A stretch of DNA of 64,000 bases from the IMG/VR virus record IMGVR_UViG_2939521961_000011, one strand, 5' to 3'. Made by a program: the position numbers and the translations under genes. Source of the stretch: a virus. Its lineage: Duplodnaviria; Heunggongvirae; Uroviricota; Caudoviricetes. Below the pieces are notes generated by a model. The model saw only the letters and a list, made by a program, of their open reading frames with translations, searched no databases and had not been told where the DNA came from. Every line of letters begins with the position of its first letter. The first letter of the stretch is position 1. Positions 11,800-50,031 of this stretch are shown piece after piece.

Positions 11800-12259
11800 G
11801 CTTGAAAGCGATTGCTTTTTCTATAAGCTCGTCTGTCTCACGTTCCACAACAGCTGGATCTGCAAAAAGCAGCCCGGACTCCACCACATCGCCATATTCT
11901 TTGTTTAACCCGGCAATCATGTACGTAATGCTTTTTCCGTCAGTAATTTCGCGGTACAACCTGAAATCACTAATCCGGATAGCCTCCATAATTGCCGGAA
12001 TCAGCGCCGTGAATTTTTCACGCTTATCCCTGGTGTCGATAGCCTTCCAGCGTTCGAATATCTTCACCCGGTTAACGCCCAGTGCCCGTTGATCAACCTC
12101 GCCATCATTAAACGTGATGCGTTGAACATCGATGTTCGGGCGTTCTTTCAGAGCCCAGAATGCTTCCGTGATTAATATCGTCGCCTGTTCCTGTGTCATT
12201 CCTGGTCGGCACACCCAGGCATCCAGAGCCTCACAAACCTGTTCAGGGGTGATTTTCAT
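11738..12259 (-). CDS. hypothetical protein in the cII position
   Basis: 173-aa ORF between dicC and O; positional analog of YdaT in prophage 2 but not obviously similar. Confidence 0.4.
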   Translation of the reverse strand: MKITPEQVCEALDAWVCRPGMTQEQATILITEAFWALKERPNIDVQRITFNDGEVDQRALGVNRVKIFERWKAIDTRDKREKFTALIPAIMEAIRISDFRLYREITDGKSITYMIAGLNKEYGDVVESGLLFADPAVVERETDELIEKAIAFKRAYRHQYQQKAGWNYEPSFC

Positions 12260-12473
12260 TGTTCAACCGCCCCGCCCGCTTTGCCTTACGATATTCGTCA
12301 TAAACTTTGGGGTCGTACTGAAGTTCCCCGCCGGATGCCTCTTGCAGGCGCATCGCGCGACCTTCAGGTACTAGCTCCCCTTTCCAGCTATAAAGCGAAG
12401 CCAAACGAATACCAGCAGCTTGTGCAAGTTTTGTTTTTGAACCGAAATACAAAAGTGCGTCAGTTTTAAGCAT
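12243..12473 (-). CDS. dicC: DicC, Cro-like repressor
   Basis: 76 aa, divergent from dicA, sequence as recalled for Qin DicC. Confidence 0.85.
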   Translation of the reverse strand: MLKTDALLYFGSKTKLAQAAGIRLASLYSWKGELVPEGRAMRLQEASGGELQYDPKVYDEYRKAKRAGRLNNENHP

Positions 12474-12556: not shown

Positions 12557-12964
12557 ATGGATACAAAAAATTTAACCATTGGCGAACGCATTAGATATCG
12601 CCGAAAAAACCTCAAATACACCCAAAGGTCTCTTGCTAAAGTCCTGAAAATTTCTCACGTATCGGTTTCACAATGGGAGCGGGATGATAGCGAACCTACA
12701 GGAAAGAATCTTTTTGCCCTCAGCAAAGTACTGCAGTGCTCGCCAACATGGATTCTATTTGGCGATGAAGACAAGCAGCCATCACCACCTATTGAGGAGC
12801 CAGTTGCTCTATCCCCCAAAGAACATGAGCTCCTTGAGCTTTTTAATGCATTGCCTGAATCAGAACAGGATGCTCAGCTCACCGAGATGCGCGCCCGAGT
12901 AAAAAATTTCAACAAACTCTTTGAAGAGTTATTAAAAGCCCGTCAACGAACAAACAAAAGATAA
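12557..12964 (+). CDS. dicA: DicA, CI-like HTH repressor lacking a peptidase domain
   Basis: 135 aa; N-terminal XRE HTH; sequence as recalled for Qin DicA. Confidence 0.85.
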   Translation: MDTKNLTIGERIRYRRKNLKYTQRSLAKVLKISHVSVSQWERDDSEPTGKNLFALSKVLQCSPTWILFGDEDKQPSPPIEEPVALSPKEHELLELFNALPESEQDAQLTEMRARVKNFNKLFEELLKARQRTNKR

Positions 12965-12988: not shown

Positions 12989-13001
12989 GTTGCCCAAAAT
13001 G

Positions 13002-13050
13002 TTAGTCATGGCAAACAAAAATACTTGACCAAATTGTTAGTCATGGCTAA
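13002..13050 (+). promoter_or_regulatory. dicB-operon promoter overlapped by two DicA operator palindromes (TTAGTCATGGCAAA, TTAGTCATGGCTAA)
   Basis: Operators at 13002-13015 and 13037-13050 flank a TTGACC -35 element. Confidence 0.55.
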
Positions 13051-13130
13051 TCTTGCTTGCATCAAGACACCGCACGGTGTTCTCAGCAAACAGTTCCGCT
13101 ACCCCGGCGTTAAGGGGAAATGAGGTCAAC

Positions 13131-13283
13131 ATGGATACGCTCAATCTTGGCAACAACGAATCTCTGGTATGCGGAGTATTCTCCAACCTGGACGGCACGT
13201 TTACCGCGATGACGTATACCAGAAGCAAAACGTTTAAAACTGAAGCTGGCGCGCGTCGCTGGTTAGCCAGAAACACTGACTGA
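13131..13283 (+). CDS. ydfA: YdfA (DUF1391 small protein)
   Basis: 50 aa from ATG 13131 with AAGGGGAAATGAGG RBS; copy at 60431-60583. Confidence 0.7.
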   Translation: MDTLNLGNNESLVCGVFSNLDGTFTAMTYTRSKTFKTEAGARRWLARNTD

Positions 13284-13294
13284 TGAGGTTGACG

Positions 13295-13933
13295 ATGGAA
13301 TTTAAAGATTTACCTCCTTCAATCCAGGAGATTGCAGCACACACACTTCGTCATCGTCTGAACGAACTTGAATTGGAATCGGTAACGAAAAAAGACACTG
13401 ATAATATGGCTCGTAATGTGCGCGATGCGTTTACCGGATTGTATTTCTGTGCGTCTATAAATAAACACGACTCAGAGAGTGTGGCAAATAAAATTGCAGA
13501 AACGACAGCGCAAAACATCAATACGAAACCAACGGAAGAAGAAATTGATCAGTTTGCTCATGATGCTGGTTTAAAAAACAAGAAAGAAAAATCGCCATAT
13601 GCGGGGAACATGTTTGTTTATGACAATCTCATCAGAATTCGTGGCGAAATTCCGGCGGAATACCTGGCAAGAGTCCATCAGGCATTGCTTAAAAATTTGG
13701 AAACAGAATTATTTGATGGCAACACTAACGGTTTCTTCATGGTATCAGGCCTTGAGAAAGACTGGGATGCAGAAAAACGCTGGAATGTTGCTACATGGTT
13801 ATTCAGTAACAGAGCCGCTGCACTGGAAGCTTCGGCATGTATTTGCGGCCTGTTCTTAACAGACCACAAATATAATCTGGATGTGTACAGTTATATTTAC
13901 GCTGAACACGGTCCACTCTGGATTGACTGGTAA
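13295..13933 (+). CDS. hypothetical 212-aa protein (insertion replacing ydfB-ydfC)
   Basis: GAGG RBS; no TM segments or recognizable motifs; absent from prophage 2 and from the Qin arrangement as recalled. Confidence 0.5.
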   Translation: MEFKDLPPSIQEIAAHTLRHRLNELELESVTKKDTDNMARNVRDAFTGLYFCASINKHDSESVANKIAETTAQNINTKPTEEEIDQFAHDAGLKNKKEKSPYAGNMFVYDNLIRIRGEIPAEYLARVHQALLKNLETELFDGNTNGFFMVSGLEKDWDAEKRWNVATWLFSNRAAALEASACICGLFLTDHKYNLDVYSYIYAEHGPLWIDW

Positions 13934-14143
13934 TTATAAGGAAACACCAGCAGGGCCGCGGCGACCAACAGAACGATTAAAATCAATAATGCCATTATAA
14001 AGGACATTATTTAATTTATCGTCGAATGCTGATTCTGTGAGCCTCAACTCTGAATGAGTTTTTAATAACCCTGATTGCCTGAGTTGATTTACCAGGCATT
14101 CAATCTGTTTTTCAATAAGCGGATTTCTTTTTTTGTTTGGCAT
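13934..14143 (-). CDS. hypothetical 69-aa protein, convergent partner of the 212-aa gene
   Basis: GGAGGA RBS 4 nt before ATG; 3' end abuts the stop of the 212-aa gene. Confidence 0.5.
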   Translation of the reverse strand: MPNKKRNPLIEKQIECLVNQLRQSGLLKTHSELRLTESAFDDKLNNVLYNGIIDFNRSVGRRGPAGVSL

Positions 14144-14480
14144 TTTATCCTCCATTGAGGTTCTGGGTTAAAAATGGAGACCAACACGCTGTCACGTGTG
14201 GTCGTGCGCCGGACACGGATAAGAATCCGGTACTGACAGTTTACTGAAAGGATATTTCCCTGAAAAGTCAGTGCATAACGCGAAAGCGTACGGCGAAGCT
14301 CTTTCCCTTAGAAGGCTTGTCGTTAGATTTCTTCGAACGTGCGCTTCCGGTTGTGGCACTCCGCGAAATGGCGCGGCGGTAAGTATGGCGGGGTTATTCC
14401 TTCCCCATTGAGGACACCGGGTTGTCAGGTTGACCATACGCTTAAGTGACAACCCCGCTGCAACGCCCTCTGTTATCAAT

Positions 14481-14538
14481 TTTCTGGTGACGTTTGGCGG
14501 TATCAGTTTTACTCCGTGGCTGCTCTGCCGCCCTTTTT
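14481..14538 (+). ncRNA. dicF: DicF small RNA
   Basis: Matches DicF as recalled (TTTCTGGTGACGTTTGGCGGTATCAGTTTTACTCC...CTGCTCTGCCGCCCTTTTT); followed by a conserved long-range inverted repeat at 14543-14557 / 14669-14683. Confidence 0.8.
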
Positions 14539-14707
14539 AAAGTGAATTTTGTGATGCGGTGAATGCGGCTAAGCGCACGCGGAACAGTTAAAACCAAAAA
14601 CAGTGTTATGGGTGGATTCTCTGTATCCGGCGTTAATTGTTAACTGGTTAACGTCACCTGGAGGCACCAGGCACTGCATCACAAAATTCATTGTTGAGGA
14701 CGCGATA

Positions 14708-14896
14708 ATGGAAACGTTATTACCAAACGTTAATACGTCTGAAGGTTGTTTTGATATTGGTGTTCTGCTCAGTAACCGGGAGTTTACTGAAGATGCCATT
14801 AACATGAGGAAATATGAGCCTTATCTGCTCAATGATAATTCCATACTTTCCCGAATTGCTCTTCTTGAACTTGGTATTTTCGGAGAACGTCAATGA
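14708..14896 (+). CDS. dicB: DicB cell-division inhibitor
   Basis: 62 aa starting METLLPNVNTSEGCF, downstream of dicF. Confidence 0.8.
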   Translation: METLLPNVNTSEGCFDIGVLLSNREFTEDAINMRKYEPYLLNDNSILSRIALLELGIFGERQ

Positions 14897-49461: not shown

Positions 49462-50031
49462 TATTCCTCCCGGCCGGGATAGTGTATTAAATCAGATATG
49501 GAGTGGGCTGTAGTCCGGAAGCCTGAATGACACACGGGGACTACAGCCCAAGAAATGAAAAAAGGCCACGCAGTTGCGCAGCCTGATAAACCCTGGTTAA
49601 AATCCACACGATAACAACACAACAATATCAGTATCTCATGCTATTGCCCGAACCCATTCGGGCATTTTTTACCCATAAAAAAGCCCCTCCGGAGAGGGGC
49701 ATGTTTGCATGCACATTCTTTTTCTTGCATGGTGCCGGGTGCCTCCCGGTGAATTCAGTATCAGCACCTGAATCCGCGATTATCACATATACCTGGTTGC
49801 TGATTGCCCCTCCGCACAGGGGGATTCACCATGCAGTAGTATTTTTAATAAACAGTAAACAAAAAAATCAAGCATTATGCAGGCTGTTTCTTTTTATCAC
49901 CGGCCACAGCAATACCACAATGCCGCAGACCAGCACCCCATCCGCCAGCACCGACATGATTCTGCTGGTGAAATCCACCATCACCACCAGAAACAGCAGG
50001 AGTGCAGCCACAGCCAGGCGCAGTTTTACCG

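What the first reader, a model, noticed from the sequence alone, without database searches (positions are those of the whole stretch)
13284..14480. Convergent gene pair plus a structured non-coding stretch replacing ydfB-ydfC upstream of dicF
Between ydfA and dicF, prophage 1 has a 212-aa gene (plus) and a 69-aa gene (minus), both with strong RBSs and abutting 3' ends, followed by about 320 bp rich in stem-loops (for example GTTGTCA...TGACAAC and CCGCG...CGCGG). Prophage 2 lacks the pair and has unrelated sequence upstream of its DicF-like RNA. A minus-strand gene inside the DicA-repressed dicB operon is unexpected because it collides with the transcript that yields DicF. Hotspots of this kind often hold defence or exclusion genes.
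Basis: partly seen in the sequence, partly recalled or inferred. Interest (0 to 1): 0.7.

Follow-up and report, generated by a model that had tools for sequence, protein, structure and literature searches.

The report
Swappable convergent gene pair beside DicF
Upstream of the DicF small RNA, this E. coli prophage carries two uncharacterised genes facing each other that travel together as one swappable cassette, while the "structured non-coding stretch" next to them is the already known DicF precursor.

Summary
The window matches a Qin-type prophage of E. coli O26:H11 11368 at 100% identity. A 212-aa plus-strand gene (13295-13933) and a 69-aa minus-strand gene (13934-14143) exist, have good ribosome-binding sites, and abut stop-to-stop.

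The stem-loop stretch (14204-14481) does not replace anything. It is about 95% identical to the K-12 ydfC-dicF spacer, which is the published RNase III/RNase E DicF precursor.

Both ORFs are real genes (dN/dS about 0.25) with no Pfam, NCBIfam, PADLOC, PDB or fold assignment.

New findings:
- The ydfA-to-dicF-leader slot is hypervariable, with at least 9 alternative cassettes. Most pair a plus gene with a different convergent small minus gene. The plus genes share a 55-aa N-terminal module but have unrelated C-termini. The minus genes all start at the same conserved hairpin/SD junction.
- The C-domain of the 212-aa protein and the 69-aa protein co-occur in 71 of 73 loci. They recur together, still convergent, in Salmonella prophages, where the C-domain sits behind a different N-module.

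Best reading (inferred): a cognate protein pair with inverse expression. The small gene is on in lysogens; the large gene is on when DicA repression lifts. A defence role is untested.

The parts
13025..13053 (+). dicBp-like promoter (TTGACC-17 nt-TAATCT) flanked by two TGTTAGTCATGGC operator-like repeats (13000-13012, 13035-13047). Presumed start of the operon that contains the plus gene, DicF and dicB.
   Evidence: Read directly from the sequence. The same motif is present in K-12 upstream of ydfA. The role of dicBp is taken from PMC10448788. Inferred by homology, not tested here.
13131..13283 (+). ydfA homologue (DUF1391), first gene of the operon and left conserved flank of the variable slot.
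   Evidence: Pfam PF07151, E 2.6e-28; RefSeq annotation.
13295..13933 (+). 212-aa gene (WP_000394548.1, 'Ybl81', phrog_2151). It has an N-terminal ~55-aa helical module (13295-13456), an acidic linker, and a C-terminal alpha/beta domain (about aa 96-212, 13580-13930).
   Evidence: AF2 model: pLDDT 67, helices over residues 1-90, beta-beta-alpha-beta-beta-alpha-beta over residues 100-200. The N-module is shared by about 40 protein clusters with unrelated C-termini; the C-domain recurs in only two other clusters. dN/dS of the C-terminal part is 0.23.
13934..14143 (-). 69-aa basic (pI 9.7) two-helix protein gene (WP_001133037.1, phrog_4274), convergent with the 212-aa gene and abutting it.
   Evidence: dN/dS 0.25. 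46% identical to the Salmonella counterpart, E 3e-13. Found next to the C-domain in 71 of 73 loci.
14144..14203 (.). Conserved junction module shared by all cassette types. It contains the SD (CCTCC on the plus strand, 14149-14153), an inverted repeat CTCCATT/AATGGAG (14150-14156 / 14173-14179) that can pair with the SD region in the minus-strand mRNA, and a second hairpin (14181-14201).
   Evidence: Sequence comparison of cassette types and Salmonella loci. Folding shows the SD paired in all five sequences tested, but z-scores are weak, -0.2 to -2.2. The module is duplicated with a second minus gene in L207. Its function is inferred.
14204..14481 (+). DicF leader/precursor: a conserved structured untranslated RNA, homologous to the K-12 ydfC-dicF spacer. 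The 5' end of the published 190-nt RNase III product would fall near 14344.
   Evidence: Alignment to K-12. Fold z = -3.0. Consensus fold of 38 distinct leaders: 51 pairs, 4 with compensatory changes, and many GU<->GC/UA alternations that favour the plus strand. No Rfam family other than DicF. Processing data from PMC10448788.
14482..14533 (+). DicF sRNA with its intrinsic terminator.
   Evidence: Rfam RF00039, 75 bits, E 6e-16; terminator-like site at 14516-14531.
14708..14896 (+). dicB (cell-division inhibitor), downstream in the same operon.
   Evidence: RefSeq annotation mapped onto the window; ORF list.

Best explanation
Shown: the interval between ydfA and the DicF leader is a hypervariable cassette slot in the DicA-controlled early operon of Qin-type prophages. 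This window carries the 'type A' cassette. It consists of the C-terminal half of a modular 212-aa protein plus a complete convergent 69-aa gene. The cassette is exchanged by recombination between two conserved flanks: the 55-aa N-module of the plus gene on the left, and a hairpin/SD junction at the start codon of the minus gene on the right. The C-domain and the small basic protein are inherited together across E. coli and Salmonella prophages, so they form one two-gene unit. The adjacent 280 nt are not part of the novelty; they are the known DicF precursor. Inferred mechanism: the two products are a cognate pair, with an acidic C-domain bound or neutralised by the small basic protein, and they are expressed inversely. 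The minus gene cannot be driven by dicBp, so it is presumably made in the lysogen from its own, still unidentified, promoter. The plus gene is made only when DicA repression is lifted. Because no terminator separates the genes, dicBp transcription then runs antisense through the small gene and should silence it. Conversely, transcription of the small gene should dampen leaky read-through towards the toxic dicF and dicB. The logic resembles an immunity or antitoxin gene facing a repressed effector gene. What the C-domain acts on is unknown.
For: - Real genes: dN/dS is 0.25 and 0.23, both have strong SDs, and both exact sequences occur on about 1000 contigs.
- Hypervariable slot: plus-gene C-term clusters C1-C9 are combined with minus-gene clusters m1, m2, m4-m8, m10 and m11. 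All minus genes start at the junction CATTTTATCCTCCATT.
- The N-module is shared by about 40 clusters among 1.84 billion representatives; the C-domain occurs in only two other clusters.
- Linkage: 71 of 73 IMG/VR loci with a complete C-domain and room downstream have the ORF69 homologue abutting on the minus strand. Identities co-vary: 100/100, 80-84/82-86, 75/86, 41/46. In complete genomes, 590 carry the whole region and 597 carry ORF69.
- Deep conservation of the pair: in Salmonella, the C-domain (about 30% identity) sits behind a different N-module, with or without an Xre HTH, directly after cox. It is followed by a convergent, 11-nt-overlapping 64-aa gene that is 46% identical to ORF69.
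- Complementary charge in both genera: C-domain pI about 5, small protein pI 9.7.
- No terminator between the genes. DicF and DicB come only from dicBp read-through in K-12.
Against: - No promoter for the minus gene was found. The only nearby sigma-70-like match overlaps its start codon.
- No expression data are available.
- No interaction or toxicity evidence exists. Both AF2 models are of modest confidence (pLDDT 67 and 62), and fold searches gave only generic alpha/beta sandwiches.
- Co-variation of two adjacent segments between fixed recombination flanks can arise from linkage alone.
- Pairing is not strict in other cassette types. C4 occurs with either m4 or m6; C3 mostly lacks a minus gene; m8 occurs without a plus gene.
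- 6 of 58 type A loci carry a frameshift in ORF69 with no obvious compensating change.
Confidence: 0.45

Rival explanations
1. Two functionally independent accessory genes ('morons') share one recombination cassette. Their co-occurrence reflects physical linkage only, and the convergent orientation simply lets the small gene be expressed in the lysogen.
For: The variable region is bounded by fixed flanks, so everything inside co-varies. C4 pairs with either m4 or m6, C3 mostly has no minus gene, and m8 has no plus gene. There is no direct evidence of interaction.
Against: The pair is retained at 30-46% identity in Salmonella, on a different prophage backbone and behind a different N-module, with the same 3'-to-3' geometry. 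The N-module alleles of the 212-aa family have been reshuffled while the C-domain/ORF69 link is kept.
Confidence: 0.2
2. The pair is an anti-phage defence or superinfection-exclusion system. The small lysogen-expressed protein, alone or with basal levels of the large one, blocks incoming phages.
For: It sits in a hypervariable prophage slot with many alternative small genes. The orientation is compatible with expression in the lysogen. The neighbouring DicB protects against phage (title and abstract of PMC6832061, listed). The cassette is abundant in prophage-rich EHEC lineages.
Against: No PADLOC match for either protein. No nuclease, NTPase, membrane or sensor domain. The large gene lies in the DicA-repressed operon and would be off when defence is needed. 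Neither full-length protein occurs in the 50,697 phage records.
Confidence: 0.15
3. The large protein is a lysis-lysogeny or early-gene regulator. Its C-domain would be an oligomerisation or sensor domain, and the small basic protein would modulate it or bind nucleic acid itself.
Against: The E. coli protein has no detectable DNA-binding domain. The structural matches are generic and the model is of modest confidence. Several Salmonella relatives with the C-domain also lack the HTH.
Confidence: 0.15
4. The 69-aa ORF is an annotation artefact on the antisense strand of non-coding DNA.
For: It is short, no promoter was found, and the AF2 model is of low confidence.
Against: dN/dS is 0.25 in this frame, and alternative frames accumulate more non-synonymous changes. 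It has a consensus SD with 5-nt spacing. A protein-level homologue in Salmonella is 46% identical, E 3e-13. A PHROG family covers its full length.
Confidence: 0.03

Closest known systems
dicBF operon of the Qin cryptic prophage of E. coli K-12 (ydfA-ydfB-ydfC-dicF-dicB-ydfD; DicA/DicC switch)
   Same: Same integration site next to rspB. It has the same dicC, dicA, ydfA, DicF, dicB and ydfD homologues and the same DicF leader. [quoted passage not shown]
   Different: ydfB and ydfC are replaced here by the 212-aa / 69-aa convergent pair. K-12 has no minus-strand gene in the operon.
Pore-forming colicin operons, where the immunity gene lies on the opposite strand between the colicin and lysis genes (from my own knowledge, not tested here)
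   Same: A repressed, potentially harmful plus-strand gene faces a small convergent gene that can be expressed constitutively. Both are followed by further genes of the repressed operon.
   Different: No sequence or fold similarity. The small protein here is soluble and basic, not a membrane immunity protein. No toxicity has been shown.
Polymorphic toxin-immunity systems (conserved N-terminal region, variable C-terminal domain, cognate neighbouring small gene; from my own knowledge)
   Same: A conserved N-module is combined with many unrelated C-termini, and each C-terminus is usually accompanied by its own small neighbouring gene.
   Different: There are no secretion or trafficking domains and no recognised toxin domain. 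The partner gene is convergent rather than co-directional. The context is an intracellular prophage early operon.
Prophage accessory-gene hotspots, e.g. the P2/P4 hotspots of antiviral systems (PMC9122126) and opposite-strand morons such as sieB in Rac (the latter from my own knowledge)
   Same: A fixed slot between conserved phage genes holds many alternative, mostly uncharacterised cargo genes.
   Different: A different slot, inside the repressor-controlled early operon and directly upstream of an sRNA precursor. The cargo is very small. The left recombination flank lies inside a gene, so cargo exchange also swaps a protein's C-terminus.
Type II toxin-antitoxin modules
   Same: Two small adjacent genes that are inherited together, with an acidic and a basic partner.
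   Different: The genes are convergent, not co-transcribed. No TA family matched in Pfam, NCBIfam or PADLOC.

Membership tests
Qin-type dicBF early operon | DicF RNA downstream of ydfA and upstream of dicB, with a divergent dicC and a dicA repressor gene | tested here: met
   RF00039 at 75 bits. dicC, dicA-like, DUF1391, dicB and DUF1482 appear in the expected order.
Known DicF precursor (K-12 ydfC-dicF untranslated region) | Sequence homology to the K-12 spacer that contains the RNase III and RNase E processing sites | tested here: met
   14204-14481 aligns to K-12 with near-identity over the last ~240 nt. The covarying long helix includes the position expected for the 190-nt species. Processing itself was not tested.
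K-12 ydfB / ydfC genes | Homology of the ORFs in the interval to YdfB or YdfC | tested here: not met
   K-12 homology is lost left of about 14203 in the DNA alignment. Neither ORF is annotated or profile-matched as YdfB/YdfC, and ydfB and ydfC coexist as separate genes alongside plus-family genes in other loci. No direct protein comparison with YdfB/YdfC was run.
Known anti-phage defence systems (PADLOC-DB 2.0) | Profile match of at least one component | tested here: not met
   0 families at E <= 1 for both proteins.
Type II toxin-antitoxin | Co-directional bicistronic operon with recognisable toxin or antitoxin domains | tested here: not met
   The genes are convergent. No Pfam, NCBIfam or PADLOC hit.
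Polymorphic toxin-immunity system | Conserved N-terminal region joined to variable C-terminal domains | tested here: met
   The N-module occurs in about 40 clusters with unrelated C-termini.
Polymorphic toxin-immunity system | Recognisable toxin domain, secretion or trafficking domain, and an immunity gene immediately downstream on the same strand | tested here: not met
   No domain hits. No hydrophobic segment or signal. The partner gene is on the opposite strand.
Invertible C-terminus-switching segments (Mu G / P1 C type) | Inverted repeats flanking the variable segment and an alternative C-terminal exon on the opposite strand | tested here: not met
   Only short chance-level inverted repeats were found. 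The minus gene has its own SD and ATG and is unrelated to the plus-gene C-termini.
Phage 186 CII-like / Xre HTH regulators | Helix-turn-helix DNA-binding domain | tested here: not met
   No HTH in the 212-aa protein. An HTH is present only in some Salmonella relatives that share the C-domain.
Rfam RNA families (for 14144-14481) | Covariance-model match | tested here: not met
   Nothing at E <= 1 apart from DicF itself and a weak STnc100 match downstream.

The most novel reading that the evidence does not exclude
The slot defines an undescribed class of prophage modules: cognate 'lytic-on' effector domain and 'lysogen-on' small inhibitor pairs. They are swapped as cassettes between a conserved N-terminal adaptor module and a conserved hairpin/SD junction. 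The same design is shared by E. coli Qin-type and Salmonella cox-type prophages. Convergent transcription would make the pair a bistable add-on to the DicA/DicC switch and would gate production of DicF and DicB.
Probability: 0.25. Interest if true: 0.75.

Novelty: new variant of a known kind. Interest (0 to 1): 0.55.

Why it matters
DicF and DicB are toxic and physiologically relevant: they inhibit cell division, affect phage resistance, and DicF influences EHEC virulence regulation. They are thought to depend only on read-through from dicBp. In about 11% of complete E. coli genomes, including O157, O26, O111 and O145 EHEC, that transcript must cross a convergent gene, which could alter how much DicF and DicB is made. 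The slot also offers at least nine small, uncharacterised protein pairs with natural specificity variants. This makes a compact system for discovering new prophage-host or phage-phage interaction modules. For annotation, the result shows that the 'structured RNA' here is ordinary, and that only the 13284-14203 cassette deserves follow-up.

Tried and rejected
- Profile searches of both proteins (Pfam, NCBIfam, PADLOC) found nothing. PHROGs matched only unknown-function families.
- PDB sequence profiles gave nothing significant; the best was E 0.057.
- Neither full-length protein occurs in the phage collection. Only the N-module has a 42%-identical relative, in Stx phages, inside a co-directional early operon.
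- The invertible-segment idea was rejected because there are no flanking inverted repeats.
- Promoter search for the minus gene found no convincing sigma-70 site. The one match overlaps the start codon, and hand inspection found only 8-of-12 matches.
- SD sequestration by the junction hairpin: the SD is paired in all five folds, but the folds are not significantly better than shuffles. I kept this only as a side note.
- A GTDB genome scan with the C-domain profile found nothing.
- Literature searches for the protein accessions, 'ybl81' and the PHROG ids gave no papers. A UTI89 filamentation screen covers only the K-12-type cassette.
- I tested for a second cross-genus cognate pair using the m4-type small gene. 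The small proteins are 48% identical, but the plus-gene C-termini match a different E. coli cluster (C3, E 3e-5), so the result is inconclusive.

Full report
**Identity and map.** Window 13100-14560 is 100% identical to E. coli O26:H11 str. 11368 and many other EHEC chromosomes. The RefSeq annotation places it in a Qin-type prophage next to rspB. Mapped onto the window, the order is:
- dicC, 12243-12473 (-)
- a DicA-like repressor, 12557-12964 (+)
- ydfA/DUF1391, 13131-13283 (+)
- a 'hypothetical protein' of 212 aa, 13295-13933 (+)
- a 'hypothetical protein' of 69 aa, 13934-14143 (-)
- DicF, 14482-14533 (Rfam RF00039, 75 bits)
- dicB, 14708-14896
- a ydfD homologue, an 820-aa exonuclease, xis and int

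Upstream of ydfA there is a TTGACC-17-TAATCT promoter-like site between two TGTTAGTCATGGC repeats. The same motif is present in K-12. By homology I take it to be dicBp.

**Check of the observation.** Both ORFs exist as described. The plus gene has GAGG 6 nt before its ATG. The minus gene has GGAGG 5 nt before its ATG. The two stop codons are adjacent, and no terminator-like hairpin lies between them. The quoted hairpins are present, and RNA 14144-14540 folds more stably than shuffled controls (z = -3.0). Prophage 2 has a ydfA homologue and a sub-threshold DicF-like RNA (42.8 bits against a gathering score of 48), but neither the pair nor the leader.

One part is wrong. The non-coding stretch does not replace K-12 sequence. 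From about 14204 to DicF it aligns to the K-12 ydfC-dicF spacer with near-identity.

**The non-coding stretch is the known DicF precursor.**
- In K-12, DicF is made only from the polycistronic dicBp transcript. RNase III produces a 190-nt species and RNase E the 53-nt sRNA, and no internal promoter was found (PMC10448788; PMC5069750).
- The 190-nt 5' end would map near window 14344.
- A consensus fold of 38 distinct leaders from E. coli and Salmonella loci gives 51 pairs. Four show compensatory changes, and many show GU<->GC/UA alternations that only make sense on the plus strand.
- The covarying long helix has its 3' arm at the position expected for RNase III cleavage.
- Rfam has no separate family for the leader.

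This part of the finding is therefore real, but already explained.

**The two ORFs are real genes of unknown function.**
- Between the window and an 88%-identical allele (L003), dN/dS is 0.25 for the 69-aa gene and 0.23 for the C-terminal 171 codons of the 212-aa gene. Shifted frames accumulate more non-synonymous changes.
- Both exact sequences occur on about 1000 contigs and are always named 'hypothetical' or 'Ybl81'.
- Pfam, NCBIfam and PADLOC give nothing. PHROGs give full-length matches only to unknown-function families phrog_2151 and phrog_4274.
- PDB sequence profiles give nothing significant.
- The AF2 model of the large protein (pLDDT 67) has a helical N-terminal 90 residues and a beta-beta-alpha-beta-beta-alpha-beta C-domain. 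The small protein (pLDDT 62) is modelled as two helices.
- Fold searches return only generic alpha/beta sandwiches or nothing.
- Both proteins are soluble. The C-domain is acidic (pI 5.3) and the small protein basic (pI 9.7).

**The slot is hypervariable, with a repeated architecture.** I oriented 125 loci on the DicF leader, taken from complete E. coli genomes and IMG/VR, and clustered their ORFs.
- The plus genes share an N-terminal module of about 55 aa (MEFKDLPxxIQEIAAxxL...RNVRDAFxGLY). After it come unrelated C-termini, which fall into clusters C1-C9.
- Most are followed by a convergent small gene of an unrelated family. Examples are the 69-aa protein here, a 64-aa helical protein, a 61-80-aa zinc-ribbon-like protein (CPxC...CPxH), and 61-, 77-, 92- and 105-aa proteins.
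- None has a Pfam hit, and nearly all are unknown-function PHROGs.
- Every minus gene begins at the same conserved junction (CATTTTATCCTCCATT). Next to it lie two hairpins and then the DicF leader.
- The left breakpoint lies just after codon ~49 of the plus gene. The window and the 112-aa type are identical up to that point.
- The exchanged unit is therefore the C-terminus of the plus gene plus the whole body of the minus gene.
- An exhaustive profile search of 1.84 billion representative proteins found only 49 relatives. About 40 share only the N-module, and just two other clusters share the C-domain.
- Type A is present in about 590-597 of 5426 complete E. coli genomes.
- In a sample not biased towards type A (47 distinct loci), K-12-type (ydfB-ydfC) was the commonest with 15 loci, and type A accounted for 2.

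**The C-domain and the 69-aa protein behave as one unit.**
- Among 73 IMG/VR loci with a complete C-domain and enough downstream sequence, 71 have the ORF69 homologue on the minus strand, separated only by the stop codons. Identities co-vary: 100/100, 80-84/82-86, 75/86.
- The two distant C-domain clusters are from Salmonella enterica. There the domain (about 30% identity) follows a different N-module (MFNVKRNG...), with or without an Xre HTH.
- The Salmonella gene lies directly after cox in int-repressor|cox prophages.
- It is followed by a convergent gene overlapping it by 11 nt. The 64-aa product of that gene is 46% identical to ORF69 (E 3e-13), with shared SGLLKT and RxGxPAGVxL motifs.
- The Salmonella N-module family also has many alternative C-termini, often with other convergent small genes, and the same junction module and leader homologue upstream of those genes.

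So the pair has stayed together, in the same geometry, while both the N-module and the prophage backbone changed. This is the strongest argument that the pair is functional and not merely linked.

**Most likely mechanism (inferred).**
- The minus gene cannot be driven by dicBp, so it must be expressed independently, plausibly in the lysogen.
- The plus gene is the second gene of the DicA-repressed operon.
- With no terminator between them, each transcript is antisense to the other. Derepression of dicBp should silence the small gene. Transcription of the small gene should reduce leaky read-through into dicF and dicB.
- Together with the complementary charge and strict co-inheritance, the simplest model is a cognate pair. 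The small basic protein would bind or neutralise the C-domain, which would be delivered or anchored by the shared N-module. This is analogous in logic to an immunity or antitoxin gene facing a repressed effector.

I put about 0.9 on the structural statements: a cassette slot, a two-gene unit, and the leader being the DicF precursor. I put about 0.45 on this mechanism. What is missing is a promoter for the minus gene, any expression data, and any evidence of interaction or toxicity.

**Rival explanations.**
- *Independent morons that co-vary through linkage.* This is supported by loose pairing in other cassette types: C4 occurs with m4 or m6, and C3 has no minus gene.
- *A defence or exclusion system.* The location in a hotspot is attractive, but there are no PADLOC hits and no effector-like domain, and the large gene would be off in lysogens.
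- *A regulator.* The same C-domain is fused to an HTH in Salmonella, PHROGs give a 'CII-like' match, and there is weak ACT/ArgR-C-like fold similarity.
- *An artefactual small ORF.* This is contradicted by purifying selection and by the Salmonella homologue.

**Comparison with known systems.**
- The locus is a member of the Qin-type dicBF operon, and its leader is the known DicF precursor.
- The pair is not YdfB/YdfC, not a recognised TA or defence family, and not an invertible segment.
- It resembles polymorphic toxin-immunity loci only in having a conserved N-terminus with variable C-termini.
- It resembles pore-forming colicin operons only in gene geometry.
- I found no paper describing the pair or the slot's architecture. 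Fig. 9 of PMC5069750 merely shows non-conserved genes around dicF.

**Verdict.** The RNA part of the finding is ordinary. The gene pair is a real, uncharacterised two-gene cassette in a previously undescribed hypervariable slot, with a conserved convergent design shared by E. coli and Salmonella prophages. I rate it a new variant of a known kind (a prophage accessory-gene hotspot or cognate small-protein pair), with interest 0.55.

Noticed in passing
window 14128-14134 (T7 on the plus strand, equal to the A7 run in codons 4-6 of the 69-aa gene); loci L010, L012, L013, L015, L030, L045: 6 of 58 type A loci have T6 instead of T7 here, which frameshifts the small gene after 'MPNK'. This could be homopolymer sequencing error in older assemblies, or slipped-strand on/off variation. 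Other alleles (MPNRPIHP..., MPNKPIHP...) lack the run.
   Followed up: partly
window 14181-14201; L003 and L066 junctions: The hairpin next to the junction is 'flipped' between alleles. The window has ACACG-CTGTCA-CGTGT, while L003 has ACACG-TGACAG-CGTGT, so the loop is reverse-complemented. Salmonella and K-12 have different stems at the same place (CCCAAC/GTTGGG and CTCCAC/GTGGAG). The structure is conserved, but the sequence and orientation are not.
   Followed up: partly
L207 1780-2700 (IMGVR_UViG_2744054454_000017): The junction module (GTGCGCCGGACAC hairpin, anti-SD hairpin and SD) is present twice. Each copy precedes a minus-strand gene: the ORF69 homologue and a 155-aa hydrophobic protein. 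It looks as if minus genes are added as units together with the module.
   Followed up: no
L288 7133-7510 (Salmonella enterica, GCA_003870655.1): A clear homologue of the DicF leader core (GTGCGCTTCCGGTTGTGG...CGCGAAATGGCGCGGCGGTAAGTATGGC...CACCGGGTTGTCAGGTTGACCAT) is followed by a different terminator-bearing RNA (GCAGGAAAGGACGCCTGCATTTTTTT), not by DicF. Rfam finds no DicF there. The leader may be a general sRNA-maturation platform carrying different sRNAs.
   Followed up: partly
window 60344-61011: The second prophage has ydfA (82% aa identity) and, about 190 nt downstream, a DicF-like RNA just below the Rfam threshold (42.8 bits against 48). It has no long leader. This DicF variant presumably matures differently.
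   Followed up: partly
window 14531-14740 and 60825-61011; also 744-913 and 49671-49860 (minus strand): The Rfam family STnc100 matches the dicF-dicB spacer / dicB 5' region weakly (35-37 bits). It matches two other places in the window strongly (102-148 bits). STnc100 therefore appears to be the equivalent spacer of related prophage operons. AgvB (49609-49670, +) directly abuts one copy.
   Followed up: no
window 14643-14616 (minus strand): A sigma-70-like site (TTAACA-16-GAGAAT, 9 of 12) lies antisense between dicF and dicB and is conserved in K-12. A transcript from it would be antisense to DicF and the leader and could reach the 69-aa gene. This is purely a consensus match.
   Followed up: no
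window 14192-14479 (minus strand); L004 2270-2677: The minus strand of the leader is free of stop codons for 95 codons. In strain ETEC1748, PGAP extends the small minus gene to 135 aa into the leader. This is probably an annotation artefact of GC-rich structured DNA.
   Followed up: no
L003 1850-2488 (E. coli RM10740): RefSeq marks the plus gene as an N-terminally truncated pseudogene (1973-2488), but an intact 212-aa ORF starting MEFKDLP is present from 1850. That locus also keeps a ydfC-like gene upstream, so cassettes can be combined.
   Followed up: partly
window 8712-8896 (minus strand); L288 8730-9005: isrK and C4 antisense RNA genes sit side by side both in this E. coli prophage and in the Salmonella prophage that carries the homologous pair. 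In Salmonella they lie next to 'Derepression'/Phage_ASH genes, which suggests a shared antirepressor control region.
   Followed up: no
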